Below are positions 1 through 63,300 of a stretch of 64,000 nucleotides of DNA, in pieces (the stretch's first letter is position 1; every line of letters begins with the position of its first letter). The DNA comes from Scenedesmus sp. PABB004 (Eukaryota): contig JABVCE010000002.1 in assembly GCA_014905635.1 (NCBI GenBank), positions 1,550,001 to 1,614,000 on the forward strand, in the 5' to 3' direction. A program made the position numbers and the translations under genes. The notes under the pieces are model-generated. The model made no database searches, had not been told where the DNA came from, and was given only the letters and a program-made list of their open reading frames with translations.

Positions 1-3000
1 CGCGCGCGCGTCCACGCACCCGGCCCTCCGCCTCGAGCGCCTCCACCTCTGCGCAAGAGCCGGTGAGCTGGAACTGCGTCATCTCGTCGGTGATGAGACT
101 GCAGGCATAGCCGATGTTGATCGCCGTCTCCTGCGGCGACGCGCGCCGCCGCGGCAGCGCCGCTCGGCGGCGGCGGGGCGGCGCAGGCCAGCGCGCACGC
201 AGCGCGCCAGCAGGCGGCGCAAGACCCTGCCGCTGCGCCGCGGCCGCCGCCGCGCCGAGGCCGCCGCGGCCGCCGCACCATCTTGTCGCCCGTCAGGACC
301 CAGAGCCGGATGCCGGCCTGCGCGAGCGTGTTGATGCACTGCGGCACGCCCTCCTGCAGCTTGTCCTCGATCGCGGTGCAGCCGAGGAGCAGCAGGTCCT
401 TCTCCACCTGCTCCCCGACCGCATCCACCTTGGCCGCGCGGTCGACCATGCAGAGCTTGGCCTCGATGAAGCGCTCGTTCCACCTGGGGGGACGGGGGCG
501 CGGGTGCGGGTGCGGCGCGCGGGCGCGGCGCGGCGCTCAGTGCGCGCCGGCCCGGCGCCGGCGCGGCGCGGCGGGGGCGGGCCGCGCCGCCGGGGCCCCG
601 CCGCGCGGCGGCGCGCCCCGCCGGCGCCCCGGGGACGCACTCGTCGTAAAACTTGGGGTCGAGCTCGGCGTAGGCGAGGCAGAGCGTGCGCAGGCCGGCG
701 CTGCCAAACTCCTCCATGTGCGCGAGCGTGACCTCCTTGAGCGCGCCGTTGAGCGGGTGCCGCCGGCAGAGGCGCTCGTAGATCACCGTGTCCGCGCCCT
801 GGAGAGGCGTCCCGCGGCGCGGCGCGGCGTGGGTCGGGCGCGCGCCGGCCGCGCCGCGCCTGACGGGCCCCCCGCGCGCGCAGCGCCCCGTGGCCGGCGG
901 CGGCGGCCCCGGCGGCAGCGGCGTGCCGCGCCTTGCAGTAGAGTATGATTTTGTTGTCGGGCGTGCGCACGATGACGCTCATGCGCTTGCGCGTCGAGTT
1001 GAACTCGAGGATGTTGAGCACCTCGTACTCGGTCTCGCGCGTGACGTCGGGCAGGCGCTCGCGCAGCGTGACGACCGTGTTGGTGCGCTTGACGAGGAAG
1101 AAGCCAAACACCTTGGCCGCGACCACGAGCGCCGCCTCGTCGGGCGACTCCGCCTCGTAGCGGATCGCCTCGGGCAGCGCCGGGCCTGCGCCGGCGGGGA
1201 GCAGGCGGGCGGGCGGCGGGCGGGCGGGCGGGGCGGGCGGGCGGGCGGCGGGCGGGCGGGCGGGCGGGCGGGCGGGCGGGCGGCGGGCGGGCGGGCGGGC
1301 GGGCGGGCGGGCGGGCGGGCGGGCGGGCGGGCGGGCGGGCGGCGCGCGGGCGGGGGCGTGGGCGGGCGGGCCGGCGGCGGTGCGCGCACGCCGGCGTGCG
1401 GGCGGGCGCGCGCTGCGCGCGTCGCGCGTCGCGGCTCGCCGTCTGGGATGACGGTGTTGCAGAGCGCGAGGAGGCGGAAGAACTGCGCGGCGACGTCGGG
1501 GTTGGGCTGCCGCGCCCACTCGGTGCCCATGAGGCGGTCGTCGTAAAAGTTGAAAAACTGCTCCCGGTACTTGTTGTCACCCTCCTCGTCCGCGACGTCC
1601 AGCTTCAGCCCGCGCCTGCCGCGCGTCGGGAGCGCACGCGGCGGCGTCGGCGGCGGCGGCGCGGCGGGGCTGGTCGCCCCGGGGCGGCCCTGCCCCCGGC
1701 CCGGCCGCGCGGCGCGGCGCCGCGCGGTGTGCGCCGCGCGCACCGCTCCGCGTTGTTGCGCTCAATCTCGGTGATGCCCGCGCCGTACGCGACGCCGGCG
1801 ATGGAGCACTTGAAGAACTCCATAACGTTGCGCGTCAGCGTGCCTGGGCGCGAGCGCACGGGCGGGCCCGAGCGCGCGGGCGGGCGTGAGTGCGGCGCGG
1901 CGGCGGCGGCGCGCCGCGGCGGCGGCGCGCGGCGCGGCGCACCGGTCTTGTCTGAGAGGATGGTGTTGACCATGCCGAGCTCCTCGTTGAGGTTGCTCGT
2001 GCGTGCGACGGCGGGCGTGTCGGTGTCGGCGTGGTACATGTCGCGGTCGAGGCCGATGAAGCAGAGGCTCTGCACGATCTTCACCATCTCGATCGACACG
2101 TACAGCGCGATGGGGATCAGGTAGCCTGCGGGGCAGGGCGTGGCCGGGCGGCGGCGGCGGCGGCGGGGCGGCGTCGACGCGGGGGCGCGGGAGGCGTGCC
2201 GCGCCGAGCGGCGCCGGCGGGGCAGGCGCGGCGTGCGCGCGGCGGCGGGGCAGGCACGGCGTGCGCGCACCGTAGAGGATGAACGCGGTGATGAAGTTGG
2301 TGACCGCCACGATGCCGGGCCGCGAGCCGTCGTACTCGCGCGGCACGTCGCCCGGCGCGAGGTACCAGTGCGCCGGCATGTCGCGCGCGGTCCACCACGC
2401 GAAGAAGATGCAGCCGGTCAGGCACCTGCGGCGCCCCGCAGCGGGGCAGAGGCTCGGGGGGCCGCGGGCGGGGCAGGCCCGCGCGCGCGCCGCCCGCCGC
2501 GCGCCCGTCGTCGTGCCCCGCGCGCCGCGCGCCGCGCGCCGCACATGCTGAAGAGCAGGCCAAACATGAAGAAGATGATGCGGTCCACACCGCGCTCGAT
2601 GAGGCTGCGCTTGCTGGGCGGCTGCGTGGAGTTCATGAAGATCTTGGTGTCGTGGCCTGGTGGGGAGCGGCAGCATTGCCGCAGCTGAGCGCGGGGCTCT
2701 CGCGGCGGCGCGGCGCCGCCGGCGCGCCGAGAGCCGCACGGCGCGCGCCGTGCTGCGCGCCGTGCTGCGCGCCGTGCTGCGCGCCGTGCCCAGTGAGGGG
2801 CGCACCCGCGTAGACGACGAGGCCGTAGATCCGGTGCGTGTTGCACAGGCTGCACCCGCGCAGCAGCATCGCCGCGGGCGAGAGCGGCAGCGTGTACGCC
2901 GCCTCCACGAGCGGCGGGCGCAGCTCGAGCTTGCCCGTGAACTGGTAGAGCCGGCTGTTGGGCGGCTCGCACGTCGCGAGGCCGGCGAAGCGCCCGATCG

Positions 3001-4140
3001 TGTCGTGGCGCAGGTCCTTGGTCTCGTCGAGGCTCTTCTTGATCTTCAGGTTGGTCTCGCCGTCAAGCTGCATCGTCTCGATGTAGCAGATGCCCTCCGC
3101 GTTCTCCGCGCTCAGGAAGAGCAGGTCGGCGGGGAAGTACTCGCCCTTGTGCACGATGATCACGTCGCCGACGCGGATGTCGCGCCACGTGCGCGTCTCC
3201 CACGCGCCCGCGGCCGCGTTGAACACCTGCGCCGCGGCGCCGCGGCGGCCCGCGCGCGTCGGACGGCTGCGAGGGGGCTGAAGCACCGCCGCTGCCGCCG
3301 CCAGCGCCCCCGGCTGCCGCCGCCGCCGCGGGCTCGCCGCCCGCCGCTGCTGCCCGCCGCCCGGCGCCCGCCGCCGCGCCGGACCTGCACGGAGCGGTTG
3401 TTGACCTCCACGTCCTGGCGGTGGCGCTTGTAGTCCTCCACCGCCTCCTTGATCATCGCCACGCCCAGCACGATCGCCAGCGGCAGGAACGTGGTCCACG
3501 GCCTGCGCGCGCGTGCGGGCCGGGGTGCGTCGGCGGCCTGCCTGCTGGCCGCGGCGGGCGCGGCCCCGCTGCGCCCGGCGCTGTGGGTGCTGCTGGTGCT
3601 GGTGTTGCTGCCGACGCCGCTGCTGGTGCCGCGGCAACCGCTGCTGCCGCAACCGCTGCTGCCGCAACCGCTGCTGCCGTAACCGCTGCCGCAACTGCTG
3701 AGCCTGGCGCCACGGCGCGAGCCCCGCCGGCGCTGCTAGCTCCCGCCCCGCCGCCGCCGCGGGCGCACCTGACGGGGCTGTAGGGCGTCAGCGACAGCGC
3801 CGCCACCAGCGTGAAGTAGATGTTGGCCACGCGCCTGCGGCGGCGGCGGTTGGCGCGCGGGCAGCAGCAGCAGCGGTTGCGCGCGCCGCCGCGCCGCGTC
3901 GCGCCCGCGCCGCGCCGCGCCCGCGCCGCGCCTGTACTGCTCGAAGAGCGACTTGGGGATGAAGGTGAGCAGGCTGTACTTGGTGGTGGTGGTCTTGTTG
4001 CCCGCGTAGTGGCGCTCGAGCTGGCTCGGGTGCTGCTCCGGCGGAAAGTGCACCTGCCGGTCGGGCTGCACCCTCGCCGGCCGCCTCAGGCGGACCGGCA
4101 GCCGCCATCGGCCGCCCTCGAGCTCGTCGGCGCCCGCCAT
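1..4140 (-). CDS. Phospholipid-transporting P4-type ATPase (ALA/DRS2 flippase family); multi-exon, 3' end runs off the window start
   Basis: Spliced translation from ATG 4140 gives [65 protein letters not shown] (phosphorylation site, split by an intron), [41 protein letters not shown]. 13 introns traced, 3 with GC donors. Confidence 0.96.
1205..1340. repeat. (GGGC)n microsatellite in a flippase intron
   Basis: About 135 nt of near-pure GGGC repeats inside intron 1186-1439. Confidence 0.9.
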
Positions 4141-4562: not shown

Positions 4563-6900
4563 TCACGCGCCCGCGGCGGCGAGCATCTCGCCGAGCTCCG
4601 TGCACTTGACGCGCGCCGCGCCCGCCGCGCGCCCCGCCGCCAGCTCGTGCGCGTCGAGGCGCTCCCAGGCGGCGTAGTCCACCACGCGCACGCCACGATC
4701 CGCCAGCAGGCGCGCCAGGCCCGCGCGCCCCGGCGGCGGCCCGCCGCCGCTGCCGCCGCCGCGGTCCAGGTCGGCCGCGAGCGCCGCCGCGGTCTCCTCC
4801 GCGTCGGTAAGGTTGGTGCCGATGATGCCGGTGGGGCCGCGCTTGAGCCACCCGCACACGTACAGCCCGGCACCGTGCTGCTCGGCGCCGCGCCCACGTC
4901 TGCGGCGGCGCGGCCGCGCGGGCGCCGCCGTCGCCCCGCGCGCGCGCGCGCGCAGGCCGCCGCCTGTTGGCGCCGTGCCGGCGGCTGCGCGCCGCGCCCG
5001 CACCCATGAGCACGCGGCCGGCGGCGTTGGGCACCACGCCGCCGCGCGCGTCAAAGGGCACGCCCTCCAGCGGCAGCGACTTGTAGCCGATGCTCTTCAG
5101 CACCAGCTGCACCGGGTACTCCTCAAACTCGCCCGTGCCCACCGCCACGGTGCCGCGCGCGGGGTCGGCCACGAGCCGCGTGCGCTCCACGCGGACGCCC
5201 CGCACCTGCGGCCGCGCCAGGCGGGCGGCGCGGGCGGCGGCGCGCGGCGGCGCTCGGCGCGCGCCGCACGGCCGGGGGGGGGGGGGGCCGGCGCGGCGGC
5301 GCGCGCCTGGTTGTCCGCGTCCGCCAGGATCTCAGCGGGGTTGCGGTACAGCTGAAAGTGTAAGTGCCTGTCTGCCCCGGGCTTGTCGGCACCGGCGGCC
5401 TACGCGTGTGCGTGCGCGCAGAGGGACCGGCCGGTCGGCAGGGCGCGGCGGCAGGGTGCGGCGCGGCCGTCGAGGCGGCGCCCCCCTTGGTCGCTGACGG
5501 CCGTCCCCGCCGCCGCCGCACGTTTGAGATGAGCTCGTGCAGCCGCCGCTTGAGCCGCACCGCCTTCATCTCTGCCGCGTCAGCCTCGGACACCGCGAGC
5601 TGCGACGGCGCCGCGTGCACCGCGATGCTGGGCATGCTGACCAGCTCCTTGAGCTCCTTGGGCGTGCACGCGGCCTGCCCGCGGCGGCGGCGGCGGTCGA
5701 TGCGCGGCGGCCGAGGCGCGGCGCGCTGGGGAGGCGCGCGCGCGCGGGAGGGCCCGCACCTGCACGGGCCCGCGCCGCGCGCACAGGTGCACCGCGCGCA
5801 CGCGGCTGCCCCGCAGCTGCGCGAGCGCGTGGCGCGCGATGTCGGTGGGCGCGAGCTGCTCCACCGGCCGCAGCAGCACGCGCGCGCAGTCGAGCGCGAC
5901 GTTGCCGATGCCGCACACCGCCACCGCCTCGACACGCGACAGGTCAACGGGCAGCTCCCGCTGGTCGGGGTGGCCGTTGTACCACCACACGAACTCGCGC
6001 GCCGCGTGCACGCCCCGCGCGTCCTGCGAGCGGGGCGGGAGGGCCGAGGCTCGAGGCGGCGTGGCCGCGCGGCGAACGGCAACGCGCGGCCGTGGCGGCG
6101 CGTGCGGCCGCGCGGCGCGGGCCTCACCTCGCCGGGGATGTTGAGCCGCCGGTCGCTCTCAGCGCCGTACGCCAGCACCACCTGGTACCACCAGCACCAC
6201 CAGGGCGTGGACGGCGCACGTCGCCTGCTGCCGGCCCCAAACCGCCCCCCGCCCGGCGCCGGCCGCGCCGCGCCCGCCGCCGGCTGACTCGCTCACCGCG
6301 GAGTACAGTCGCCGCATCTCGTCCACGCTCACGTCGCGCCCGACCGTGACGTTGCCCCAGTAGCTCACGCGCGGGTCCTGGGCGATGCGGCTGAACTGGT
6401 TGGTCACGTTCTGTGTGCGCGCGGCCGGGCGTGGTCGGGACGGCTGGCGCCGCAGCCGCTGGGGCGTGTGGCGGCCGCGGCCGGGCGCGGCTGCGCAGCG
6501 CACAGACCTTGGTGTCCGCATGGTCTGGCGCGACGCCCGTGCGCACCAGCCCGAACGGCGTCGGCAGCCGGTCCTGCGGGGCACGCGCGCCCGTGGGCCG
6601 CTGCTGCATCAGGCCAGCGCCGCTGCCGCTGCCGCGCCGGCGCCGGCGCCGCGGCGCGCACCAGTATGTCTATGTGTATGTCGTCGCCATAGCGCTTGAG
6701 CAGCTGCGGCGGCGTGGGCGGCGGCACGCGTGGGCGCCGGCAGCAGCGGCGCCCGCCGCGGCGCCGCGGCGCCGCCTCACGTGCTGCGCGGTGTAGAAGC
6801 CCGCCGGGCCGGCTCCCACTATGGCTACTGCCAGCTGCGACGCTGCGCTGGCCGCTGCGGCATAGCCACGCGCCAGGCCGCCGGCGAGACAGGAGAGCAT
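4563..6900 (-). CDS. Mitochondrial NADPH:adrenodoxin (ferredoxin) oxidoreductase, FDXR/ARH1 family
   Basis: Presequence-like N-terminus, then VAIVGAGPAGFY, PTPFGLVRTGVAPDH, AREFVWWYNGHPD, GIGNVALDCAR, RRGPVQAACTPKELKE, LVLKSIGYKS, GLYVCGWLKRGPTGIIGTN. 9 introns. Apparent 1-nt frameshift near 4868. Confidence 0.94.
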
Positions 6901-7257: not shown

Positions 7258-10200
7258 ATGGCGGGGTCCTTCGTGGCAGACGTGCTGCTGGAGGAGTCGA
7301 ATGAGGTGCGGCGGCGCGGCGGGAGTGTGGAGACAGCAGCGCCGCGCGCGCAGGCGCAGCAGCACCAGCTACCGCCACGCGCGCGGCCAGGCAGCGAGGG
7401 CGCCCCCGTGCGTCCCCGGCCCCAGGTGCTGGCGGTCCCGGTGGTTCGGCCGCGCGCCGCCAAGAAGCTGCTGCGAGAGCTCGGCCCGCGCCAGCTGCTC
7501 GGACCGCCGCTCGCGCCCACGACGGAGGACGGCCTCGACGCCTTCCTGCAGCACGTGGGCGGGCTGTCCGGCAAGAACCCGGGCCGCTGGGACAGAGTCG
7601 GTGCGCGCGCGCTGAGCGGCAGCGCGCCGGCCGCGGCGGCGCGGCGCCGAGCGTGCGGCGCCCCGCGCTGCGCGCAGGGGAGACGCAGGTCGAGATCAGC
7701 GAGGCGGACGGCAAGCGCACCATCAAGCGCACCAGCATGTGCACCGGCATCCAGCTGCACCTGTGGGTCACGCCGCCGCACTACGACGCACGCCTGCCGC
7801 CGCGCCCCGGCACGCCGGAGCTGGACTTTTCGGTGCAGCGGCGCGAGGTCAAGAGCACCGAGGAGTGGCGGCAGGTGGGGGCGGCTGCACACCGTGGCCG
7901 CCGGCGGCGCCCGCCGACGCGGCCCGGCGGCCGCGGCTGCGGGGCGCCGCGTGCGGCGCGCCCACCTGCTCGCGCGCGCCCCGCGCGCCCGCCGCAGCTG
8001 ATCGCGGATCAGCCCTGGACGGCCAGCCGGCGGCGGCAGCTGGTGCTGAACTTCCTGCAGGCAAAGCTGGAGGCGGAGGATGGCCAGCTGCAGCTGGAGG
8101 GTGCGCGCGGTGCCTGGGAGCTGGCCATCAACAAGGCGCACCACGCTGAGATGGGCGCGCAGCACCTGCGCCCGCTGGTGCAGCACCTGCAGTCGGCCAG
8201 CATCGAGGTGCGGAGGGGAGAGCAGGGGGGCGGCGGGCGGCGGTGGCTGCAGGTCGCCCGCGCCGCGCGTGCCGCCGTGCTGAGCGGCCGTGCCCGCAGG
8301 TGGCGCGCACGTGCGCGGCGGCGGTGTGGGGGCTGGCGGTGAACGAGCGCTGCCGCGCGCTGCTGCTGGGCCTGGGCGCCGTGCAAGCGCTGCTCGGCGT
8401 CGCGCGCGCGTCCCTCGCGCTGCCGTGCGTGGCCGACCCCGAGCGCCACGCCGCCGAGTACCTGGCCGGCGGCAAGTGCAGCCAGTCGCAGCGCAACCAG
8501 CTGCAGGCGTGCGTGCTGGGCGGGCTGTCGGTGCTGGCGGTGGACGCCGCGTGCCGCGCGCCGATCGTCGCCCTCGAGCCCGGCCTGGACACGCTCTTCG
8601 CCCTCGCCGGCGCCCTGGAAGGCTACACCGACCGCGCCTGGGCGGCCGCGCGGCGCGAGACGGCGGCCAAGGCGATCGCCAGCCTCGTGCAGCGCGACGC
8701 CGACGTGCGCGCGAGCCTCGTCGCCACGGGCGGCATCGGGCGGCTGCTCGCGCTGCTGGACGCCAAGGTGTGTCGGCGCGAGGGGAGCCGGCTGGCGGGG
8801 CGCCGCCCGCCCCGGCCGCGCGAGGCGCGCGGGCCGCGTGCGACCCGCGGCCGCGCGCGCTCGCTCGCAGGGCCCCGGCAGCGCGCGCGTGCAGTTTGCG
8901 ATGGCCAGCGTGCTCGCGACGCTGGTGCTGGACGACGGCGCGATGGCGCTCATACAGGGCCGGGGCGAGGGGCACCTCGTGTTCACTGCCACGCTGCGCC
9001 TGCTGGGCCACGTGGTCAACGCGCTCAAGTTCAGCCTCGCCGTGCCGGGCGCCCAGATCCTCAGCGAGGGCATGACCGCCGCCGACGTCGCGGCGGCGAT
9101 GCAGCGCCTGCGCGAGGGCGGCGACAGCAGCGGCGGCGGTGGCGCGGCTGTCGCGGCGGCGCGCGTCAGCGCGAGCGGCGGCGACGCGCTGCTGCGCACC
9201 GCGGCGCGGCGGCTGTCGCAGGAGGCGGCGCTGGGCGGCGGCGCCGGCAGTGGCGGCGCAGCTGCGCCGGCGCTCGCGCGCCGGCTGTCCACCGATGCCG
9301 CGGCAGCCGCGGCGCTGCTGCAGGAGGCCAGCCGCGCGAGCGCAGCGGGCGGCGGCACGGCCGGCGCCGCGGCCGACGAGGACGACGCGCCCGAGCCGCT
9401 GGACGCCGCGAACGCGGTGTCGCTCGCAGAGGCGTGCGCGCAGGCGATGTGGGGCTCGGCGCAGTACAGCCTGCCCAGCGCGCCGGGCGAGCCGCTGCAC
9501 ATTACGCAGGCACGGGCGCCGCCACTGCCGGCCCCCGGCGCCGCCTGCCCTGCCCCGCGGCGCGCGCCCAGCGGCCGGCCTGCTGGCTGGCCTCGGCCGC
9601 CACGCCGCCGCCACGGCCGCCGCCGCCGGCCGTGCAGGATCACGTGATTGAGCTGGGCAAGCTCGCGCTCGACTGCCTGCTCCTCAGCGAGCTTGACCTC
9701 GGCCGCGTCTGCCACTGCCTTGGTGCGTGCGTGCGCGCGTGTGAGCGCCGGCGGCCGCCGCGCAGCACCGCGCCGCCCAGCGCCCCCTCCCTGCGCTGGC
9801 CCCGCCGCGCGCAGGCGCGACGCTGGCGAGCCTCGCGAGCAACAACGTGGCGGCTGGGTTCATCATGGCCGCGCCCGGCGACAGCGTGGCGCGGGCGGTG
9901 CTCGCGCTGCTGGAGGTGGAGGACGACCCGGGGTTCAGCAGCGCGGGCCACGTGCGCGCCGCCGCGAGCACCTGCCTCGCCTTCCTCGCCTGCCACCCGC
10001 TCGGCGCGCGCGGCGACACCTGCCTGTCGGGGCCGTTCCGGGACCGCCTGCTCGCCGTCGGCGCGCTCGGCGCGCTGCTGCGCGCCGCGCTCGCGTCGTC
10101 GGCGGACGACCACTGCGACGCGATCATCCAGCAGACCGCGGCCGTGGGCATCATGTACCTTGCCACCATGGCGCGCGCTGCTTGCACGCAGCAATTGCTG

Positions 10201-13200
10201 CGCCTGCGCAGTCGTGGCCGGTCGCGGCCGGCAGCTGCCGCCGCGCCGCGCGCCGCCCACACACGCTGCCGCCGCCGCCGCCGCCGCTGCGGCCGCCGCG
10301 CAGGCGGGCGCGGTGGGTGCGCCCGAGCTGGCGATGTATGCGGCGCTGATGACGAGCAACAGCAACGTGCAGATGGTGGAGTACCTCATGGCCGGGATGT
10401 GGATCCTGCTGAAGCACCCCAGCAACCGGGAGGTCCTGGGCCGCGCGTTCAAGGTCAACCCCGCCGCGAGCGCGCTGACACAGGGAATGGTGGAGAAGCT
10501 GCAGGACACGATCGACGTGGCAGACGTCAACGAGGCGGTGCGCGTGCGCGCGGGCGTGGGCACGGCACAGCACGTGGCAGGGCGCGCGCGCGTGCACGCG
10601 CGCGACCGCCGCCCTCTCTTCCCCCCCCCCAACCAGGCCGAGAAGCTGGCCAAGGGCCGGCCGCCCGGCGCGCCCGGCGTCGCGGCCGACGGCAGCGGGG
10701 CGTCGGACGGCGGCGACGGCAGCCGCCCCGGCAGCACAGGCGCGTCCACGCGCGGCGTCGGCGGGCTGCCGGCGGAGGCGAGCTTTGGCGCGCGCGCGGC
10801 CGAGGCGGACAGCCTGGAGGACAAGCTGCAGCTGGTGGAGACCAAGCGCAGGTGCGGCGCACCTCCTGGCAACGTGGGAGGCATGGGGGGCAGGGGCCGC
10901 GCCGCAGCCGGGCCGCGCGGCGCCGCTCAGCCGCTGACGTGCTCGCGCCCACCCTGGGCGCCACGCCTCGCCCAGGAGCGTGCTGTTCAACAGCCTTGCT
11001 GGCGGCGACGGCTCCGCGCAGGCCACGCCGCGCTCCCTGGCCGGCGCGGGCGTCGGCCCTGCCGGCGCCGCCGGCGAGGCCGAGTCGGGGAGCGGCCGCG
11101 TGGCGGCGCTGTCCGAGGCGCTCAGGGCCGAGCGAGAGAGCGCGAGCGCGGCAGAAGCCGTCCGGGGCGTGGACCGCGGCCTCGACCGCAGCCTCACCAA
11201 CGTGCGAACGGCCCAGCCAGCCAGGGCAAGGGAGCAGGGCTGGCTGACGCGCGCCGGCCGCCGCGACGCCGACGCCGCCTGCCGCCGCTCGTGCGCAGCT
11301 TGACACGCAGCTCGGCTCCGAGGGCCTGGACCAGAACTGGGGCCTCGACGTGCTGGTCCGCGTCGGCGAGACCTGGCTGCCCAAGCTCGCCGACACGCAC
11401 GCCGTGCCGCGCGGGCAGAGCATGCAGGGCGCCGCGGCGCCCGACGGTGGCGACCGCGACGCGCGCGAGGCGGCGGAGGCGCGCGCGGACGTGCCGCTGC
11501 TGAAGCTGTTTGAGTTCCTCACCGCCAGCCTCTGCCTCTACGTCATAGACGAGGCGCCGCCCGCGGCCTCGCGCAGGCGCGGCGACGCGCGGCACAAAAC
11601 GCTGCGCGGAGGTGCCGCGCACGAGCGCGGGGCGCAGACGCCGCCGCCGCCGACGGCCGCAGGACCGCCAACGTCTTCACCGCCGCCCGGCCGCCGGGCG
11701 CCAAGGGGTGAGCGAGCGCGCGCGGGCGCGCTGGCCCGCACACCGGGCGCCGCCTCAGCCCTCCGCGCCGCCGCCGCCGCCGCAGCGCCGCGAGCTGGTG
11801 GACGGTCGCGGCGCCGGTGATCGACGCCGGCGAGGAGCTCAACCCCCTGCTCGCGCGCACGATGCACATCCTGCTCACCCTCCTGCGCCTGCGGCTGCCG
11901 GCGGCGTGGAAGACGCTGCAGCTGGCGGTGGTCATGCTCTGGAACAGCGCGGCGCAGTCGGGTGCGCGGGGCGGCGCGGGCGCGGCGCCGCGTGCTGCGT
12001 GACTGCGCCCTGCCGCGCGCTGGCCGCTGACTCGCCGTCGCCGGCCGGCGCGCGCGCCGCGCGCGCGCGCGCAGCCAGCGTTGAGCGCCACCAGGTGGCG
12101 TCGGGCGTGTGCGGCGCGCTGCTGGACGTGGCCAACAGCCGCCTCTGGCCGCCCACGCTGCGCGACATGGCGGCGGGGCAGCTGCAGTTCCTCATAGAGA
12201 CACACGCCAGCCTGCTCGCCCTCGGCGCCGACTGGGCCGCACAGCGCGCGGCCGCGGCCGCGGCGGCGGCGGCGACGACGCAGCCCCGGGGCGGCAGCGA
12301 CGGCGGCGGCAAGGCCGGCGGCGGCGGCGGGGCGCCGCCGCGCGGCGCCGACGGCGGCCGCTGCAGCCCGCTGCCGTTTGACCTCGCGGCGCTGCTCAAC
12401 CCCGTGCGCGGCGGTGGTGGCGGTGGCGGCGGTGGGCGCGCGTCACACAGCGCGGCTCCGCCGCCCGACCCGCTGGCCGAGGCGGTTGCGGCGGCCGGCG
12501 CCCACCCGGGCCTCGTCCCGGTGCTGTCCAGCCTCGTCGGCCTCGCCCGCACGGGGCACCCGCTGCTGCAGCTGTCCGCGGCGCGCGGCGTCGCGCGGCT
12601 GTGCTTCGCGGGCAGCCTCGGCGCGCCGAGCGCGTCGGCGCTGCTGGGCGAGGTCAAGGCCACCGCGGCCGCGGTCGGCGCGCTGGGGGCGATGGTCGAC
12701 CTGCTCAGGTGCGGCGGCGGGGGCGGGCGGGCACGCCTGCCTCGCCCTGCCTTTGCCCGCCCCGCCTCGCTCAGCCGTCGGCGCCGCCGGTGCAGGGAGG
12801 GGGCCACCAAGTTTATGGTGCTCGAAGACGGCGGCGCGCTGCCGCCGCCGCCGGTGCTGACCCACCTGGTGGACCGGGACTGCCGAATCTACGAGCGCGA
12901 CGTCAACGACCGGGAAGGCGCGCAGCACAGCACGCACAGCATGCGGGGGCGGCCTCGGGGAGGGCGCGCGGAGAGCGGGGAGGGCGCGCGGAGTGCACGC
13001 GCGCGCGCGCGGCTGGGCGGTCAGCCGCCGCCCCCGCGCCCGCGCGCGCAGGCGTGCTGGAGCTGCTGACCGCGGCGCTCGCGGCACTGCTCAACCTGAG
13101 CACGTGGCGCGCCAACCAGCCGCTGCTGGCGCGGCGGGGGCTGACCGTGCTGCTGCGGGCCAACACCAGCCTCTACCAGGCCATCACCGCCCGGGTGCGC

Positions 13201-18607: not shown

Positions 18608-27211
<8,604 letters not shown>

Positions 27212-35296: not shown

Positions 35297-35301
35297 TTAC
35301 A
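35297..35301 (-). terminator. Candidate TGTAA poly(A) signal for the B12D-like gene
   Basis: TTACA on the + strand (TGTAA on -), about 690 nt downstream of the B12D-like stop. Confidence 0.35.
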
Positions 35302-37065: not shown

Positions 37066-40448
<3,383 letters not shown>

Positions 40449-52565: not shown

Positions 52566-52623
<58 letters not shown>

Positions 52624-54002: not shown

Positions 54003-55124
54003 ATGAGCGCCGACCACGGTGCGTCGCGCTGCGGGAGGCGCCGCGCTCGCTGCCGGCCGTTTGATGCTGCTGCTGCTGCTCCAGCTCGAGCTGCTCTGCT
54101 TGCCCCGCTGCGCCCGCAGAGCCTGCAGCTGCGCCGGTGGAGGAGGAGGAGGAGGCCCAGGCGCCGGTGCAGGCGGCGGCCGAGCCGGCGACGGAGCCGG
54201 CCACGGGCGACGTTGACGGGGCGCCGGCGCCGGCGCCGGCGGCGGCCGAGGCCGAGGCGCCGCCCAGCGAGGAGCCGCCCAGCGTGCCGGACAGGCCGAT
54301 CACTGACGCTGAGCCGGCAGCAGAGGCGCCCCCCGAGCCGGAGCCGGAGCTCGCGCCCGCGCCCGCGCCGGCGCCCGCGCCCGCGCCCGTGCCGGCGCCG
54401 GCGGCCGACGAGCCCGCCAGCAGCCCGGCCAAGGGCGGCGGCAAAAAGAAGAAGAAGGGCGGCGGCGGCGGCGGCGGCGCGGCCGGCGAGCCCGCAGCCG
54501 CGCCGGCCGCGCCGGCCGCGAGCAAGCAGCCCAGCGCGCCGTCCGCGCCCGCCGCCAGCGCGGCCGCGGCCGAGGGCGCCGCCGAGGGCGCGCGCGCGGA
54601 CGTGCGCGCGCCGAGCACGAGCGTGCGCGAGCTGCGCGAGCAGCTGTCCGCCGGCGGCGCGGTGCTCACGGGCGGCGCGGCGCGGCCGGCGAGCCCCGGC
54701 AGCCCGCCGCGCAAGGAGGAGCCCGCGCGCGCGCTGAGCGAGCACGACCGCGTCAACACGGCCAACGCCGCGGCGCTGCTGGCGACGGGCGAGTTCAAGC
54801 TCGTGCCGGGGCGCGACAGCGTGGCGTACGAGCGCCTGGTCACGCTGCGCCTCGAGGACGGCATCGACGTCGCACGCAAGGCGCGGCGACGCGACGCGAC
54901 GCGCGCCGCGCGACGCGCGCAGCGCGCAGCGTGCGGGCCGGCTGCGCGCGCGGGCGGGGGCGCCGCCGTCGGCGGCCCACACGCACGCACACGCGCGCGG
55001 CGCGCAGGAGGACTACCTGAGCGCCGAGGAGTTCACGCGCGTCATGGGCGTCGACCGCAGCGCGTACGCGGCGCTGCCGCAGTGGAAGCGGTTGCAGATC
55101 AAGCGCAAGGTGCAGCTCTTCTGA
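54003..55124 (+). CDS. Villin headpiece domain protein with long Pro/Ala/Glu-rich N-terminus
   Basis: 3 exons. C-terminus YERLV...GIDVARKEDYLSAEEFTRVMGVDRSAYAALPQWKRLQIKRKVQLF* is a canonical headpiece ending in LF. Confidence 0.88.
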
Positions 55125-55351: not shown

Positions 55352-58076
55352 TCACAGGTCCCAGCCGAGCACCGCCGCGTGCTGCGCGGCTGCGGCCTCG
55401 GCCTCCTGGATGCGCGCGGAGAGCTCCTCCTGCTTGCGTCCGAGGTAGTTGAAGTTCTGCGCCGCCTTGTCTGCCGCGCGCGCGTGGTGGTAGAGCTGCT
55501 GCATCATGCTCAGCCCCGCGACCTGCGCCGCCAGGTCGCCCGCGCCCTTGGCCAGCGTGAAGCTGCTGCTCACCATCGCCAGCGCGCCCTGGCTGTCCGC
55601 CGCGCCGACCTGTTCGCGCGCGTGCGCGCGCGAGGGGCGGCGCGGGTTGGCCGCGGGCTGGGCGGCCCCGGCCGCACGCCTCGCTGCCGCGCACGCCTCG
55701 CTGCCGCGCACGCCTCGCTCTGCGCTGCGGCGCCCCGCGCCTCGCTCTGCGGCGGCGCGCGCCTGCAGGGGCGCCATGAACAGCAGGACCTGGGACACGA
55801 GCTGGTGGTTCTGCAGCCGCCCGTGCGCGAGCTTGAGGCCTTTGCTCAGGCGCTGCTTCGCGTCCGCCGTCTCGTCCGCGCTCGCGTCGGGCGCGGCGAG
55901 CGCGACCAGCCCGCCCGCGACGTTGGCCAGCGCGCGCTCCACGTAGCCCAGCTCGCCCTCGCCGCCGCCGCCGGCGACCGCCAGGTCGCCGAGCAGCTCC
56001 CGCGCGCGGCCGACCGCGCCCGGCGCGTCCTGCGCCAGCGCCGCGAGCGCCGCGAGGCAGCGCCCCGCGGCGCGCAGGTGCGCGTCGCTGCTCGCGCCCG
56101 CGCGCTCAAAGTGCGCCAGCGCCGCGCCGTGGTCGCCGACCGCCTGCGCGTACAGGCCCGCCTGCAGGTGCACACACGGCCGCAGGTGCCCAAGCAGGCC
56201 GGGGAAGCGCTGCAGCAGCGCGGCGGACTGCGCCGCGTCGTGCCGCGCGGCTGCAAAGTCGCTGCAGAGCAGGTGAAGCTGCTGCCGCGCCTCGAGCAGG
56301 TGCAGGCGCAGCACCAGCGCGGCGCGCGCGTCGTACAGGCTCACGTGGTCCAGCGCCGCCTCGCCCGCGTCGGGGGGCAGCCCCAGCGCGCTCAGCTGCT
56401 CATCCACGAGCGACAGGCCTGGCGCCGGCGCGCGGCGCGCGGCGGCGCGGCCCGGGGAGGGGGCCGGGGAGGGCAGCAGGTCGGCCGAGGGCGGTGCGAG
56501 CACATGCCGATGCTGCTAGGCGGCCCCGCCGGCAGCGCAGCGGCGGCGGCCGCCGTGCGCCGCGCCCACCTCTGCTGATGTGCAGCTGCGCGGGCTTGAC
56601 CTTGCCGCCCGGCTTGAGTATGGTCGCCGCCAGCAGCTGCACCAGCGCGCCGAGGCAGGGCCGCGGCAGCCAGCAGTATGGTAGCTGCTCGCGTGGCAGC
56701 GCCTCCAGCTGGCCCTCCAGCTCCGCCACGATCGGCGGCGGGTTGGCGTCGGCGGGCGCCAGCTCCTGGAAGTTCCCCTGGCGGATGGCCATCAGCACCT
56801 GGCGTCGCCGCCGGGGCGGCGGCGACGGCGGCGGTCGGGCCAACGCGGGCGCGGCACCACGCGCTCGCCGGCCCTCTGCCCCCTCTCCCCCAGCCTGCCA
56901 GGCCCCGCCCACCGCCCACCTGCAGGACGGTGAGGTGGAGCTTCAGCAGCGCCGCGCCGCCAGCGCCGCCGGCGCCGGGCGCCTGCTCCAGCTGCTGCAG
57001 CGCCTCCACCGCCGCGGGGGCGAGCTGCTCAAAGGCCTGCCGCTCCCACGTGAGCATCACGAGCTGCAGCTGGAACAGCACGCACAGCAGCTGCGGGCCC
57101 GGACGGGCGGCCGGGCGCAGGGCGGGGCGCGGGGCAGGGCGCGGAGCGACGTGGCGGCGTGAGCGCTGCAGGCGTGCCGCCGCCGTGATCGCACGCGCCG
57201 AGCGCGCGCGGCGCAGCCCCGCGCCCCGCCGCGCTCGCGCGCGGCACACCTGCTGCTCCGCCAGGCCCGCCGCCGCCGCGAGCTCGCGCCCCCTGGCGGC
57301 GTGCTCCGCCGCACGGTGGGGCTGCCGTTCCAGCGTGAACGACTCGGCGCTGTGCAGGTGGAAATAGACTCCCCACTCGGCCAGGCCGCGCCTGCGGGGG
57401 GTGCCGCAGGGCGCGCTCCGCAGGGCGCGCTCCGCGCGCGCAAGCATACGCCGCGCGCGGGGCACGCCGCAGGGCGGCCGCCGCGCGCCGCCGCGCGCCC
57501 GCGCCGCGCCCCCGCGCGCGGCGGGCGCGCCAGGCCGGGCCGCGCACCTGCTGCTGCTGCTCGCGCCGGCGGCGCCGCCCGCCGCGGCGGTGCACAGCTG
57601 CAGGCCCTTGGCGTAGCACTGGCGCTGGAAGGCCGTCTCGCCTAGGAACTTGTGCGCGCGCCCCAGCGCCGCGAGCACCTCGCACTTGAGCAGCGCCTGG
57701 CCCGGCAGCCCCGCCACCAGCATCTCCTGCGGCGCGGCGCAGCGCGGCGCGGGCCCTGTCAGCGCCTCTGGCCGCCGCGCGGCGCTGCCGCCGCGACAGC
57801 GCAGCGCCGCAGCACCCTCTCTGCTTGCGGCACGTGAGCGGGCGCCCACACACGCACCGCCTTCTGCAGGTGCTGCTTGGCCTCCGGCACGCCGTTGGCG
57901 GCGTGCTCGAGCAGCAGCGCCGACAGCCGCAGCCGCGCGCCCGCCTCGTCCGCGGGCGGCAGCGACAGCCCCAGAAGCGCGGTGTACGCCTTGATGGCCT
58001 GCATGTGGTGCCCCTCGCCCGCCAGGCGGGCCGCCAGCGCCTGCAGCGTGCCCTGCACCTCCGCCGCCGCGGCCAT
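55352..58076 (-). CDS. MAU2: Cohesin loader subunit MAU2/SCC4
   Basis: LQALAARL..MQAIKAYTAL..LPPADEAGARLRLSALLLEHAANGVPEAKQHLQKA, YCWLPRPCLGALVQL, KQRLSKGLKLAHGRLQNHQLVSQ, SSFTLAK; TPR-like helices as in plant SCC4. Confidence 0.85.
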
Positions 58077-60312: not shown

Positions 60313-63300
60313 TCACGGGTTGGCGTTCAGGCCCCCCAGCGCGGCCGCCTGCGCCTGCGCCGCCGCAGCCTGCGCGGCGGCGGCCGCCGCCTGCGCCTGG
60401 GCCTGCGCCTGCGCGCTGAACTGGGCCGCGGTCGCGTTGGCGGCGGCCGCCGCCGCGGCGGTGACCTCGGCCTGCTGCAGCTTCTTCAGCAGCGCCTCCA
60501 GGCGCGCCACGACGGCGTCAAAGCCAGGCCGCTGCTCCGGCACGGGCGCCCAGCACTCCTGGATGAGCGCCGACAGCCCCGGCGGCGTGTGGGGCGGGAT
60601 GTCGGGCCGCGCGCCGCGCGCCATCACCGCCAGCGCCGCCTGCACGCCGTTGAGGCCCTCGAACGGGATCGCGCGCGCGCAGCACTCCCACATGACCATG
60701 CCAAAGCTGTAGATGTCCGCCTTGTTGCTGTAGCGCTGGTTGCCCAGCACCTCGGGCGCCATCCACTGGAACGTGCCCAGGCCGCCGGTCATGGTGTGCA
60801 TGCCGTGGTACAGCCGGGACAGACCAAAGCTGCAGCGCGCACGCGCGCGACGCCGCGGCGGAGCGGGAGAGGCGGCGCGGTCGGGCGCGGTCGGGCGCGG
60901 TCGGGCGCGGCGCGCGCAGGGGCGCAGGGGCGCGGGCGGGGGGCGGGCGGCACGGCGGCGCGGGCGCGGCGGGCGCGGGCGCGCAGGGGCCACGCACTCT
61001 GCGACCTTGACGCAGCTGTCTGCGTCGACCAGCAGGTTGCCGCTCTTGAGGTCCCTGAGGCAACGCACGGAGCGGGGCGAGGGGAGGAGCTCAGGGGCAG
61101 CCCCGCACGCGAGGCCGGGGCGCGCGGCGGCGCCGCGCGAGGCTGCGCCCGCGCGCGCGCGCCTGTGCAGCACCGAGTTGGCGTGCAGGTGCTCCATGCC
61201 GCGCGCGGCGCCCAGCAGCATGCCCACCACCTCCACCCAGGACAGGTAGCAGCCGGGCGAGTGCAGCAGCCCGTACAGGGAGCCCTTGCTGCAAAACCTG
61301 GGGGCAGCCGCGGTGTGCGGCGCACGGCGCGCTGGCACAAGCGCGCGCCGCGGCGGCCGGCGCCGCCTGGGCCGCGCGCCAGCGGGGCGGGGGGCGCAGC
61401 GAGGCTCACTGTGTGACGAGCGCGAGGTTGGGCGGGCGCGTGCACACGCCCAGCAGGCGCAGCACGTGGGGGTGCTCCGGCAGGCGCGTCATGGTCGTGA
61501 CCTCACGCATGCTGCGCACACGCACGAGGCGGGGGGGGGGGGGGGGGCGGAGAGGCAGGCGGCGGACTCACACCGGCACCTGGCTGGCTCTCGCAGCGGC
61601 GCGGCGCCCCGCGGCGCCCCGCGGCGCCCCGCGCGGCGCTTACAACTCTGCCATGAGCTTGGCGCTGTCGGCGGCCTGGGCGTTGAGCACCTTGATGGCC
61701 ACAGCCGTGTGCCGCCACGTGCCGTAGTACACCTGCGGCGCCACGGGCGGCTCGAGGCCGGCGCGTGGCGCTCCGCGCGCCCGCCGCCGGCACCCTCTCC
61801 CCTTGCCCCCGCAGCCCGGGCAGCGCCGCGCACCTTGCCAAAGCCGCCCTCGCCGATCTGGTGGCCGAACTGCAGCTCGTCCCAGCTGATCTCCTTGTCG
61901 CCCGCGACGGCGCTGATGGCGGCGGCGGGGCTGAGCTCGCCGCCCGCCTGCCGCCACGGCGGCGGCGCGGTACCTGCCTGCCCCGCCGGCGGCCGCGCCG
62001 GCGGCGGCGGCATCGCGCCCGCGGTCCCGGCTGTGGCCGCGTGCTGCGCCTGCTGCTGCGCCTGCTGCTGCGCCTGCTGCTGCGCCTGCTGCTGCGCCTG
62101 CTGCTGCGCCTGCTGCTGCATCTGCGCCTGCAGCTGCGCTTGCTGGTGCTGCTGCATCTGCGCCTGCTGTTGCATCTGCGCCTGCTGCGCCTGCTGCTGC
62201 GCCTGCTGCAGTTGCGCCTGTTGGTGGGCCTCCAGCGCCTGCTGCGCCTGCACCTGGAGGGCGTGCGCGTGCTGCGCCTGCTGCGCCACGCCCGCGGAGC
62301 CCGCCGGGCACTGCAGCGACAGGCCGTCAAACACTGGCAGCTCGCCGGGCACTGCGGGCGGCGGCGTGCCCTGCTGCACAAGCCCGGGCCCGGGGCCAGG
62401 CGTGCTGTGCCGCGACGCCCCGGGCGAGCCGCCAGTCGGCTGGTGCAAGGAGCCGCCGCCGCTGCGGTCGAGCGGCTGCTGGTGGTGCTGGACGGGCGGC
62501 GCCGCCACTGCCAGCTGGTGCTCGGCTGCCAGCAGCTGCTGCTGCGCCTGGGCCGCCTGCTGCGCCTGCTGAGCCTGCGCCACCTGCTGCACCTGTAGCA
62601 GCAGGTCGTGCAGCGGTTCTGCAGCGTTGAGGGGCTGGCCGGCCACGACTGCCTGTTGGAGCTGCTGCTGCTGCTGCTGCTGCTGCCCAAACTGCTGCTG
62701 GAGCTGCTGCTGCTGGAGCTGCTGCTGCTGGAGCTGCTGCTGCTGGAGCTGCTGCTGGAGCTGCTGCTGCTGGAGCTGCTGCTGCTGGAGCTGCTGCTGC
62801 TGGAGCTGCTGCTGCTGCTGGTGCTGCAGTGCCTGCTGCAAGGCCTGCTGCTGCTGCTGGTGCTGCAGCACCTGCTGGAAGGCCTGTTGCTGCTGGTGCT
62901 GGTGCTGCTGGTGCTGCTGCTGCTGCTGCTGGTGCAACGCCTGCTGCTGCTGGTGCCGCAGCACGATGGCGCCCTGCTCTTCCACGCTGCAGTACTGCAG
63001 CGGCGCCGGCTGCAGCTGCGGCATGGGCTGCAGAGCCATCTGCGGCGGCAGTAGGTCTGGCTCGGGGCCGTGTGATGGCAGGGTGCACTCCTGCCGCACC
63101 AGCACGCCGGCGCCGGATTCCCTGCCCTGCTGCAGCGCAGCCACGCCGTACGGGCCGCCGTACGCGTGCTGGACCGCCACCAGCTGCACCTGCTGCTGCG
63201 GGGCGCCGCTGCCCCCGCGCTGCCACTGCTGCGCCGCCTGCTGCTGCTGCAGCACATGCGCCTGCTGGGCCGCCATCTGCTGGTGCGCCGCCATCTGCTG

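What the first reader, a model, noticed from the sequence alone, without database searches (positions are those of the whole stretch)
799..61162. About one intron in five uses a GC 5' splice site
Seen: I count ~29 GC-AG introns among ~145 traced by hand, in 15 of 18 genes. Several are fixed by invariant motifs: kinase H-R|DLK (61055-61162), GEN1 M|GITGL (44555-44649), flippase LYCK|GAD (799-931) and FEQYR|RVAN (3835-3931), enolase LLK|INQ (37339-37526) and VAK|AGA (39126-39283), headpiece RK|EDYL (54881-55007), FKBP GAGQ|VIPG (31917-32101). Others: 1186-1439, 5206-5306, 9510-9637, 10171-10303, 11577-11662, 12918-13051, 14543-14627, 19488-19668, 21438-21650, 21837-22035, 24670-24798, 26697-26888, 27819-27922, 29532-29674, 36149-36269, 45585-45719, 46245-46397, 47090-47183, 48994-49097, 55610-55762. 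Established: GC donors are about 1% in most eukaryotes and usually compensate with a near-perfect U1 match. Here most read AG|GCGCG(C/G), a poor intronic match to canonical U1; only exonic -1 G is constant. Inference: 5' splice-site recognition is relaxed or altered (variant U1/U6 or associated proteins) under extreme GC pressure. Standard gene callers would mis-annotate many genes.
Basis: partly seen in the sequence, partly recalled or inferred. Interest (0 to 1): 0.8.

Follow-up and report, generated by a model that had tools for sequence, protein, structure and literature searches.

The report
Many GC-AG introns in GC-rich alga
In this stretch of an extremely GC-rich green-algal genome about one intron in four or five really does start with GC instead of the usual GT, which is a strong new example of an effect already known from other GC-rich algae.

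Summary
All 28 listed introns begin GC and end AG on the stated strand. My own protein-to-genome spliced alignment gives 41 robust introns in enolase, an ABC transporter and a P4-ATPase. The same sites are chosen when any donor dinucleotide is allowed. Pfam profile continuity confirms three more. A cross-validated ab initio model recovers 28 of 28 and gives 21-31% GC donors, but its antisense decoys are almost all GC, so it over-calls.

The window is 75-81% GC. Its ABC gene matches a public protein named as Scenedesmus sp. PABB004, a 78.5% GC genome.

GT and GC introns share the same intronic consensus, GYGCG. GC introns carry extra exonic strength: -2 A in 86% against 41-48%. T at +2 is still about 24 times commoner than intron composition predicts. 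This fits ordinary U2-type GC-AG introns made frequent by GC pressure. No U1 or U6 gene and no RNA data could be examined.

High GC-AG shares are already published for Emiliania huxleyi and pelagophytes, so this is a new member of a known kind.

The parts
799..931 (-). GC-AG intron, P4-ATPase (flippase), phase 0
   Evidence: 10 of 10 homologs. Same site with any donor allowed.
1186..1439 (-). Candidate GC-AG intron, flippase
   Evidence: Predicted ab initio. Homology is ambiguous: 3 of 10 for this site, 3 of 10 for 1169-1425, which is also GC.
3835..3931 (-). GC-AG intron, flippase, phase 2
   Evidence: 10 of 10 homologs. Same site with any donor allowed.
5206..5306 (-). Candidate GC-AG intron upstream of the flippase homology region
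   Evidence: Ab initio only. The downstream exon has a weak coding score.
9510..9637 (+). Candidate GC-AG intron, large gene of unknown family (about 7.2-18.1 kb)
   Evidence: Ab initio only. No homologs were found for this gene.
10171..10303 (+). Candidate GC-AG intron, large unknown gene
   Evidence: Ab initio; passes the strict filter, which 0 of 17 decoys pass.
11577..11662 (+). Candidate GC-AG intron, large unknown gene
   Evidence: Ab initio only.
12918..13051 (+). Candidate GC-AG intron, large unknown gene
   Evidence: Ab initio only.
14543..14627 (+). Candidate GC-AG intron, large unknown gene
   Evidence: Ab initio only, with weak flanking coding scores.
19488..19668 (-). GC-AG intron, ABC (ABCC-type) transporter, phase 2
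   Evidence: 7 of 8 homologs. The junction peptide is present in public protein P0121.
21438..21650 (-). GC-AG intron, ABC transporter, phase 0
   Evidence: 8 of 8 homologs. The junction peptide is in P0121. An in-frame stop would appear if the intron were retained.
21837..22035 (-). GC-AG intron, ABC transporter, phase 0 (donor GCACGC)
   Evidence: 8 of 8 homologs. The junction peptide is in P0121.
24670..24798 (-). GC-AG intron, ABC transporter, 129 nt, in frame
   Evidence: 7 of 8 homologs splice it out. Public protein P0121 reads through it as a 43-residue low-complexity insert.
26697..26888 (-). GC-AG intron, ABC transporter, phase 2
   Evidence: 8 of 8 homologs. The junction peptide is in P0121.
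27819..27922 (+). Candidate GC-AG intron, gene upstream of or within the DAGK_cat gene 1
   Evidence: Ab initio; passes the strict filter. No Pfam match on the flanking pieces.
29532..29674 (+). Candidate GC-AG intron, DAGK_cat-domain gene 1
   Evidence: Ab initio. The Pfam DAGK_cat match ends at profile 72 one residue before the junction and resumes at profile 79 ten residues after it, which is inconclusive.
31917..32101 (+). GC-AG intron, FKBP, phase 0
   Evidence: The FKBP_C profile is exactly contiguous across the junction: 43 at the last upstream residue, 44 at the first downstream residue.
36149..36269 (-). Candidate GC-AG intron, small gene (weak B12D-like hit)
   Evidence: Ab initio; passes the strict filter.
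37339..37526 (-). GC-AG intron, enolase, phase 0 (LLK|INQIGT)
   Evidence: 8 of 8 homologs. Same site with any donor allowed.
39126..39283 (-). GC-AG intron, enolase, phase 0 (VAK|AGA)
   Evidence: 8 of 8 homologs, and also 8 of 8 with any donor and any acceptor allowed. The GT alternative 9 nt upstream deletes 3 conserved residues.
44555..44649 (-). GC-AG intron directly after the start codon of the GEN1/XPG-like gene (ATG|GCGAGT)
   Evidence: The first residue after the intron aligns to XPG_N profile position 2.
45585..45719 (+). Candidate GC-AG intron, DAGK_cat-domain gene 2
   Evidence: Ab initio only, with the smallest margin over a GT alternative (6.1 nats).
46245..46397 (+). Candidate GC-AG intron, DAGK_cat-domain gene 2
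   Evidence: Ab initio; passes the strict filter.
47090..47183 (+). Candidate GC-AG intron, DAGK_cat-domain gene 2
   Evidence: Ab initio; passes the strict filter.
48994..49097 (+). GC-AG intron, GH99 endo-mannosidase-like gene, phase 1
   Evidence: The Glyco_hydro_99 profile runs 127-189 to the last upstream residue and 191-234 from the first downstream residue. The split codon takes position 190.
54881..55007 (+). Candidate GC-AG intron before the villin-headpiece exon
   Evidence: Ab initio; passes the strict filter. The VHP profile starts 3 residues after the junction, so the junction itself is untested.
55610..55762 (-). Candidate GC-AG intron, cohesin-loader (Scc4/MAU2-like) gene
   Evidence: Ab initio; passes the strict filter.
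61055..61162 (-). GC-AG intron in the kinase catalytic loop, phase 2 (H-R-DLK)
   Evidence: The upstream piece matches PK_Tyr_Ser-Thr 82-125 up to its last residue. The spliced junction reads HRDLK. Retention would put 36 residues inside the catalytic loop.

Best explanation
These are ordinary U2-type GC-AG introns in nuclear genes of a scenedesmacean green alga with about 78% GC.

How it most likely works:
1. Very strong AT-to-GC pressure, from mutation bias and/or biased gene conversion, has left introns with only about 7% T.
2. That pressure keeps converting the +2 T of 5' splice sites to C.
3. The major spliceosome tolerates C at +2 when the rest of the site is good. GC donors therefore persist mainly where the exon ends in (C/A)AG and +5 is G.
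4. The result is a mutation-selection balance with about 20-30% GC donors. It is not a new splicing mechanism.

Shown: the sites exist, removing them restores conserved proteins, there is exonic compensation, and T is still preferred at +2.

Inferred: that the major spliceosome removes them, and that GC pressure is the cause.
For: - Composition. The window is 75-81% GC throughout. Verified introns are 85-89% GC, with T 6-8% and C 47%.
- Frequency. 9 of 41 homology-verified introns are GC-AG. Three more are verified by Pfam continuity.
- Shared intronic consensus. +3 G is 100/92%, +4 C 75/92% and +5 G 94/100% in 32 verified GT and 12 verified GC introns. This points to one recognition system.
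- Exonic compensation. -2 A is 24 of 28 (GC) against 13 of 32 (GT), p = 0.0005. -1 G is 28 of 28 against 27 of 32. This is the pattern described for GC 5' splice sites in humans and lower organisms (PMC3167603, introduction passages).
- Persisting selection for T. The neutral expectation for C/(C+T) is 0.87 and the observed value at +2 is 0.22, so T is favoured about 24-fold.
- Other features. 0 of 28 have a U12-like 5' motif. Acceptors are CAG|G, and lengths do not differ between the classes.
- Precedent.
  - E. huxleyi has 56-65% GC donors, attributed to 65% genome GC (PMC4028052, passages).
  - Aureococcus and Pelagomonas have about 14-17%, attributed to high GC (bioRxiv 10.1101/2024.10.30.620910, passage).
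  - The GC-rich green algae Micractinium conductrix and Chlorella sorokiniana have about 6-7% major non-canonical sites in annotation (PMC6310983, supplements 7 and 8).
Against: - No transcript evidence. No RNA run holds the stretch, so splicing at these sites is inferred from protein homology and coding frame.
- Small sample. Only 64 kb was seen, so the genome-wide share is unknown.
- Possible extra relaxation. With a human-like preference for T (my rough figure of 66-100-fold, from recalled human intron composition), composition alone would predict about 6-9% GC donors. The observed 22% (CI 11-38%) may need some further relaxation.
- Partial compensation. GC sites still average fewer matches to CAG|GTAAGT than GT sites: 4.6-4.7 against 5.2 of 9.
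- GC content is not the whole story. E. huxleyi at only 65% GC has a far higher GC share.
- Weaker support for 15 of 28. The ab initio method that supports them produces almost only GC 'introns' on antisense decoys (39 of 42).
Confidence: 0.75

Rival explanations
1. One reading: the spliceosome itself has changed. A variant U1 5' end, U6, or proteins such as U1C or Prp8 would read +2 as any pyrimidine and make GYGCG the preferred site. The high GC share would then be an adaptation or a real relaxation of recognition.
For: - The 5' splice-site consensus of all introns here (GYGCG, +4 C in 75-92%) departs from GTAAGT at +4 and +6.
- The observed 22% exceeds the roughly 6-9% I estimate from composition with a human-like preference for T (rough).
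- Intronic positions show no compensation in GC introns.
Against: - T at +2 is still about 24-fold over-represented relative to intron composition.
- GC donors need a stronger exonic AG, so C at +2 is still a handicap.
- Nothing about the snRNAs could be examined.
Confidence: 0.15
2. Artefact: the introns really use nearby GT donors, or are not introns at all. The GC starts would come from hand-tracing in a sequence where GC dinucleotides are everywhere, or from assembly errors at +2.
For: - GC is the commonest dinucleotide here.
- My ab initio model GC among 42 false antisense 'introns'.
- 15 of the 28 have no homology check.
- 7 of 28 are multiples of three. One of these is read through in the public protein.
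Against: - 12 GC-AG introns are fixed to the nucleotide by homologs or Pfam profiles, 9 of them also with any donor allowed.
- GT-only models lose 64-341 alignment points.
- All 28 beat the best GT alternative by at least 6.1 nats.
- 27 of 28 survive a 1% prior on GC.
- 21 of 28 would shift the frame if retained.
- Errors would have to hit +2 specifically, and with a matching excess of -2 A.
Confidence: 0.03
3. The GC donors are deliberately weak sites kept for regulation, for example regulated intron retention or slow splicing, and are not a passive product of base composition.
For: - GC 5' splice sites are intrinsically weaker and slower (PMC3167603, passage).
- E. huxleyi combines many GC donors with widespread intron retention (PMC4028052, passages).
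- Several GC introns here are in frame without stops, for example 24670-24798.
Against: - They occur in housekeeping genes of unrelated function, including enolase, FKBP, an ABC transporter and a kinase.
- 21 of 28 are not multiples of three, and at least one in-frame one carries a stop.
- No expression data are available.
Confidence: 0.07

Closest known systems
GC-AG-rich intron set of Emiliania huxleyi (Feldmesser et al. 2014, PMC4028052; passages read)
   Same: - A GC-rich algal nuclear genome in which GC replaces GT at a large share of donors, while the acceptor stays AG.
- The authors attribute it to genome GC content.
- GT-centred gene callers mispredict junctions.
   Different: - E. huxleyi has a majority of GC donors (56-65%) at only 65% genome GC, and this was validated by ESTs, RNA-seq and RT-PCR.
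- Here the share is about 20-30% at about 78% GC, with no RNA evidence.
- This organism is a chlorophyte, not a haptophyte.
Pelagophytes Aureococcus anophagefferens and Pelagomonas calceolata (bioRxiv 10.1101/2024.10.30.620910; one passage read)
   Same: - A similar share (about 14-17% predicted GC-AG).
- The same explanation (high genome GC).
- A low-GC relative has 0.32%.
   Different: - Stramenopiles with few introns per gene (0.1-0.9).
- Here the genes are intron-rich (12-22 introns per gene), and the share is somewhat higher.
GC-rich trebouxiophyte annotations (Micractinium conductrix, Chlorella sorokiniana) in the 121-plant survey of Pucker & Brockington 2018 (PMC6310983, supplements 7 and 8)
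   Same: Green algae at 64-67% GC with raised major non-canonical shares: 8057 of 114,347 and 7090 of 124,435 annotated introns.
   Different: - About 6-7% there against about 22% here.
- Those are annotation counts of GC-AG and AT-AC together.
- The sphaeroplealean Monoraphidium neglectum in the same table has 19 of 67,746. That probably reflects its gene caller and not its biology (my inference).
Ordinary U2-type GC-AG introns of animals and plants (about 1%; PMC7072748 and PMC3167603, passages)
   Same: - GC at +1/+2 and AG at the 3' end.
- No U12 motifs.
- The rest of the 5' site is strengthened.
   Different: - The frequency is 10-20 times higher.
- The compensation sits in the exon (-2 A, -1 G) only. 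The intronic +3 to +6 (GCGN) matches canonical U1 no better than in the GT introns of the same genome.

Membership tests
U2-type GC-AG introns | Intron starts GC and ends AG | tested here: met
   28 of 28 listed intervals.
U2-type GC-AG introns | Removing exactly this interval restores a continuous, conserved protein | tested here: met
   9 introns by spliced alignment to 8-10 homologs each, also with an unconstrained donor. 3 more by Pfam profile continuity. 16 of 28 are not fully tested in this way: the kinase intron is only partly covered, and 15 are not covered.
U2-type GC-AG introns | No U12-type 5' splice-site motif (RTATCCTT-like) | tested here: met
   0 of 28 match G[CT]ATCC at +1..+7. 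The motif itself is recalled.
U2-type GC-AG introns | The rest of the 5' splice site is stronger than in GT introns (compensation) | tested here: inconclusive
   Exonic: -2 A is 24 of 28 against 13 of 32 (p = 0.0005), and -1 G is 28 of 28 against 27 of 32. Intronic +3..+6 is no better. Total matches to CAG|GTAAGT are 4.6-4.7 against 5.2 of 9.
U2-type GC-AG introns | Actually spliced in RNA at these sites, by the major spliceosome | not testable with these tools
   No RNA run is listed and no genome is held for snRNA searches.
GC-AG enrichment of GC-rich algal genomes (E. huxleyi / pelagophyte type) | Very GC-rich nuclear genome | tested here: met
   The window is 75-81% GC. The organism named for the 100%-identical protein has a 78.5% GC genome.
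GC-AG enrichment of GC-rich algal genomes (E. huxleyi / pelagophyte type) | GC-donor share far above 1-2%, with the acceptor still AG | tested here: met
   9 of 41 (22%, CI 11-38%; p = 1e-7 against 2%). All 41 acceptors are AG, and were required to be AG in those alignments.
GC-AG enrichment of GC-rich algal genomes (E. huxleyi / pelagophyte type) | Holds genome-wide | not testable with these tools
   Only this 64-kb window is available.
U12-type (minor) introns | Conserved /RTATCCTT 5' site and a minor-spliceosome branch site | tested here: not met
   0 of 28. The consensus is GCGCG.

The most novel reading that the evidence does not exclude
The spliceosome of this lineage may have co-evolved with its 78% GC genome. 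A changed U1 5' end, U6, or U1C/Prp8 contact would make GYGCG the true optimum and read +2 as 'any pyrimidine'. That would be a natural experiment in how 5' splice-site recognition can be rewired. My evidence does not exclude it: the shared non-canonical +4 C, and a GC share above my rough composition-only estimate.
Probability: 0.12. Interest if true: 0.7.

Novelty: new member of a known kind. Interest (0 to 1): 0.4.

Why it matters
- **Record share for green plants and algae.** A GC-donor share of about one in four or five would be the highest I could find for them. The 121-species survey tops out near 7-8.5% for major non-canonical sites. It occurs in the most GC-rich genome of its order.
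- **A dose-response point.** It gives a clean data point for how base-composition pressure erodes the 5' splice signal, and which positions take up the slack (-2 A and -1 G).
- **Practical consequence for annotation.**
  - Gene models for this and similar genomes must allow GC-AG, but with care. In such DNA, false introns are almost always GC-AG (39 of 42 decoys).
  - Real GC-AG introns can also be missed. One is read through in the public protein.
- **Not a new mechanism.** Published cases in haptophytes and pelagophytes already establish the phenomenon.

Tried and rejected
- **Whole genome and own-genome snRNA search.** No genome is held for this window.
- **Rfam.** No match on the whole window at gathering thresholds, and none on 32300-36000 at E up to 1. 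No U1 or U6 could be inspected.
- **RNA evidence.** No RNA holder is listed. Only two freshwater-metagenome DNA runs hold 5-6% of the sampled words.
  - Laying them gave short, low-depth contigs and many spurious joints.
  - None of the differences shown falls on a donor +2 position. However, 109 differences were not shown and coverage at those places is unknown.
- **Homologs of the large unknown gene.** A search with exon 8237-8863 found none among proteins of 367-2000 residues. Its five listed GC introns remain ab initio only.
- **Polarising GT-to-GC changes with relatives.**
  - The metagenome scan with P0121 returned 80 loci.
  - Only the best two, L001 and L002 (65-66% identity, 74-75% GC), were aligned. 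They share no clear intron positions.
  - From the listing, the rest match at 46-54% identity over spans that look mostly intron-less.
  - No polarity could be inferred.
- **PDB search.** It returns no stored sequences, so it could not feed the spliced aligner.
- **Counting GC donors from the ab initio model alone.** Rejected as an estimator, because antisense decoys are 39 of 42 GC. Filter-based shares (18 of 59, 26 of 92) are biased by the stronger exonic consensus of GC donors.
- **Earlier scan notes.** There are none for this genome. Two notes on Ostreococcus introns did not bear on this.
- **Literature.**
  - 'GC-AG' with 'Scenedesmus' gave two unrelated cyanobacterial papers, judged from the listing only.
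  - Of the 15 papers listed for 'GC-AG' with sphaeroplealean names (at least 2 of 6 terms; 1,878 papers matched), none holds 'GC-AG'.
  - 'PABB004' is held by 15 papers, of which 10 were listed. I read passages of one. That paper does not contain the words 'splice' or 'intron'.

Full report
**What the window is.** The 64 kb are 75-81% GC throughout. They show a dense alternation of short stretches with strong third-codon-position GC periodicity and stretches without it, which is the pattern of intron-rich eukaryotic genes. Pfam scans of the periodic pieces identify these genes:
- a P4-ATPase flippase
- an ABCC-type transporter
- two DAGK_cat-domain genes
- an FKBP
- enolase
- a GEN1/XPG nuclease
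- a GH99 enzyme
- TAF12
- a villin-headpiece protein
- a cohesin loader
- a fatty acyl reductase
- a TKL kinase

Enolase homologs are closest in green algae. An exon of the ABC gene is 100% identical to the public protein 'abcC12 [Scenedesmus sp. PABB004]' (P0121). A comparative paper lists that genome at 39.8 Mb, 78.5% GC and 7,092 genes (PMC12571836, table passage). No whole genome is held for the window, no RNA run is listed, and no Rfam family matches in the window.

**Checking the observation: coordinates and homology.** All 28 listed intervals start GC and end AG on the stated strand. To test them without transcripts I wrote a protein-to-genome aligner with intron states for all three phases.

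| Gene | Homologs | Robust introns | GC-AG among them | Support for the GC sites |
|---|---|---|---|---|
| Enolase | 8 | 12 | 39126-39283, 37339-37526 | 8 of 8 each |
| ABC transporter | 8, excluding the organism's own P0121 | 21 (at least 6 of 8) | 26697-26888, 24670-24798, 21837-22035, 21438-21650, 19488-19668 | 7-8 of 8 |
| Flippase | 10 | 8 (at least 9 of 10) | 3835-3931, 799-931 | 10 of 10 |

- The GC sites are chosen identically when any donor dinucleotide is allowed.
- GT-only models lose 105-117 points per homolog in enolase, 172-341 in the ABC gene and 64-133 in the flippase. A typical GT-only solution uses a GT inside a valine codon 6-12 nt upstream and deletes conserved residues.
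- In the flippase, four further introns are ambiguous. One is the listed 1186-1439 (3 of 10, against 3 of 10 for another GC site).
- In total, 9 of 41 robust introns are GC-AG: 22%, exact 95% CI 11-38%, p = 1e-7 against a 2% expectation.

**Checking the observation: Pfam continuity.** I cut exon pieces exactly at the claimed junctions and scanned them.
- FKBP: FKBP_C 12-43 runs to the last upstream residue, and 44-73 starts at the first downstream residue.
- GH99: 127-189 upstream, 191-234 downstream, with the split codon between them.
- GEN1: XPG_N position 2 falls at the first residue after an intron that directly follows the ATG.
- Kinase: the upstream piece ends at profile position 125, and the join spells HRDLK.

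**Ab initio control.** I trained a small Viterbi gene model on the three verified genes. It uses codon log-odds and donor and acceptor matrices that ignore the dinucleotide itself.
- Cross-validation: leaving the test gene's introns out of training (its coding sequence too, for enolase and ABC), it recovers 11 of 12, 21 of 21 and 7 of 8 verified introns exactly.
- It predicts all 28 listed GC-AG introns.
- Over the sense strands of the gene intervals it gives 148 introns with 46 GC under equal priors. Under a prior that treats GC donors as 1% it gives 145 introns with 30 GC, and still recovers 27 of the 28.
- Warning: on the antisense strands it predicts 42 false introns, of which 39 are GC-AG. 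In this DNA an unsupported GC-AG call is cheap. The 15 listed introns without a homology check are therefore less certain than the other 13. Shares from the model (21-31%) are upper-leaning estimates.
- For each of the 28, the listed site beats the best frame-compatible GT alternative by 6.1-36.6 nats after giving GT a 2.5-nat head start. The range is similar for verified and unverified sites.
- 21 of 28 lengths are not multiples of three.

**What the sites look like.** Verified GT (n = 32) and GC (n = 12) introns share the same intronic consensus:
- +3 G in 100% and 92%
- +4 C in 75% and 92%
- +5 G in 94% and 100%

The genome's 5' site is therefore (C/A)AG|GYGCG. The poor match to GTAAGT is not peculiar to GC introns.

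The difference between the classes lies in the exon.
- -2 A is 24 of 28 in the listed GC introns, against 13 of 32 in verified GT introns (Fisher p = 0.0005). Against a larger GT set it is 32 of 66 (p = 0.001).
- -1 G is 28 of 28 against 27 of 32.
- This is the known compensation of GC 5' splice sites (PMC3167603, introduction passage). Here it is exonic only and incomplete: mean matches to CAG|GTAAGT are 4.6-4.7 against 5.2 of 9.
- Acceptors ((C/G)CAG|G), lengths and GC content do not differ between the classes, and none of the 28 has a U12-like start.

**Mechanism.**
- Verified introns have T 6-8% and C 47%. An unconstrained +2 position would be C in about 87% of pyrimidine cases.
- It is C in 22%, so T is still favoured about 24-fold.
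- With a preference of 66-100-fold, composition alone would give 6-9% GC donors. That preference figure is my rough estimate for human, from a 1% GC share and recalled intron composition.
- Most of the rise from 1% is therefore explained by base composition. The remainder may reflect some relaxation, the exonic compensation, or sampling.
- I conclude that these are ordinary major-spliceosome GC-AG introns held at high frequency by GC pressure (confidence 0.75).

**The public annotation.** P0121 contains the exact junction peptides of four of the five GC-AG introns of the ABC gene. It also contains the 43-residue translation of 24670-24798, which 7 of 8 homologs lack. The public models therefore already use GC-AG, but at least one real GC-AG intron is read through.

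**Comparison with what is known.**
- E. huxleyi has 56-65% GC donors, validated by RNA, with AG acceptors. This is attributed to its 65% GC genome, and GT-centred models were wrong there (PMC4028052, passages).
- Aureococcus and Pelagomonas are predicted at about 14-17%, again attributed to GC content (bioRxiv 10.1101/2024.10.30.620910, one passage).
- Surveys find a weak positive correlation between genome GC and splice-site GC (PMC7072748, passages).
- In the 121-plant survey the highest major non-canonical shares among the green algae listed are about 5.6-8.5% (Ostreococcus tauri, Micractinium, Chlorella sorokiniana, Micromonas pusilla). The sphaeroplealean Monoraphidium neglectum has 19 of 67,746 (PMC6310983, supplements 7 and 8).
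- I found no paper linking GC-AG introns to Scenedesmus or its relatives. See searches, and search 21 with passages of one of its papers.
- The finding is therefore a new and rather extreme member of a known kind.

**Limits.**
- There is no transcript evidence.
- The sample is 64 kb.
- 15 of 28 sites have no homology check, and 14 of these rest on ab initio evidence alone.
- No snRNA could be inspected.
- No orthologous introns from lower-GC relatives were available: the two best-matching metagenome loci were the only ones aligned, and they were too distant.

Noticed in passing
window 24670-24798 (-): The public protein P0121 reads through this 129-nt in-frame GC-AG intron, which adds a 43-residue Ala/Gly/Arg-rich insert. 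7 of 8 homologs lack that insert. This is a likely annotation error in a public gene model.
   Followed up: yes
antisense strands of all gene intervals in the window: A gene model that allows GC donors predicts 42 false introns on antisense strands, and 39 of them are GC-AG. In DNA this GC-rich, GC-AG calls without homology or RNA support have a high false-positive rate.
   Followed up: yes
window 32400-35900: About 3.5 kb with no coding periodicity on either strand and no Rfam match at E up to 1. The two metagenome runs cover parts of it with few differences. Its nature is unknown; it may be UTR, intergenic or non-coding.
   Followed up: partly
window 44650-44652 / 44555-44649 (-): The GEN1/XPG-like gene seems to have a first coding exon that ends right after the start codon (ATG|GCGAGT...), so the initiator Met is split from the conserved GITGL by a GC-AG intron.
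   Followed up: partly
window 7200-18100 (+): A very large gene (about 7 kb of predicted coding sequence, about 32 predicted introns) has no Pfam hit on any exon piece. A search with exon 8237-8863 found no homolog among proteins of 367-2000 residues.
   Followed up: partly
L001 and L002 (metagenome loci): ABC-transporter relatives (65-66% identity) lie on contigs of 74-75% GC. Other very GC-rich eukaryotes are therefore present in public metagenomes, and they seem to have few introns in this gene.
   Followed up: partly
window 20000-39999: Two freshwater-metagenome runs (X1, X2, one study) hold short, low-depth contigs that are nearly identical to scattered parts of this stretch. This suggests that the alga or a close relative occurs in that water body.
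   Followed up: partly
window 26382-26611 (-): One ABC-gene intron is placed differently by the public protein (GT, 26382-26611), by my ab initio model (GT, 26419-26533) and by the various homologs. This part of the gene model is unresolved.
   Followed up: no
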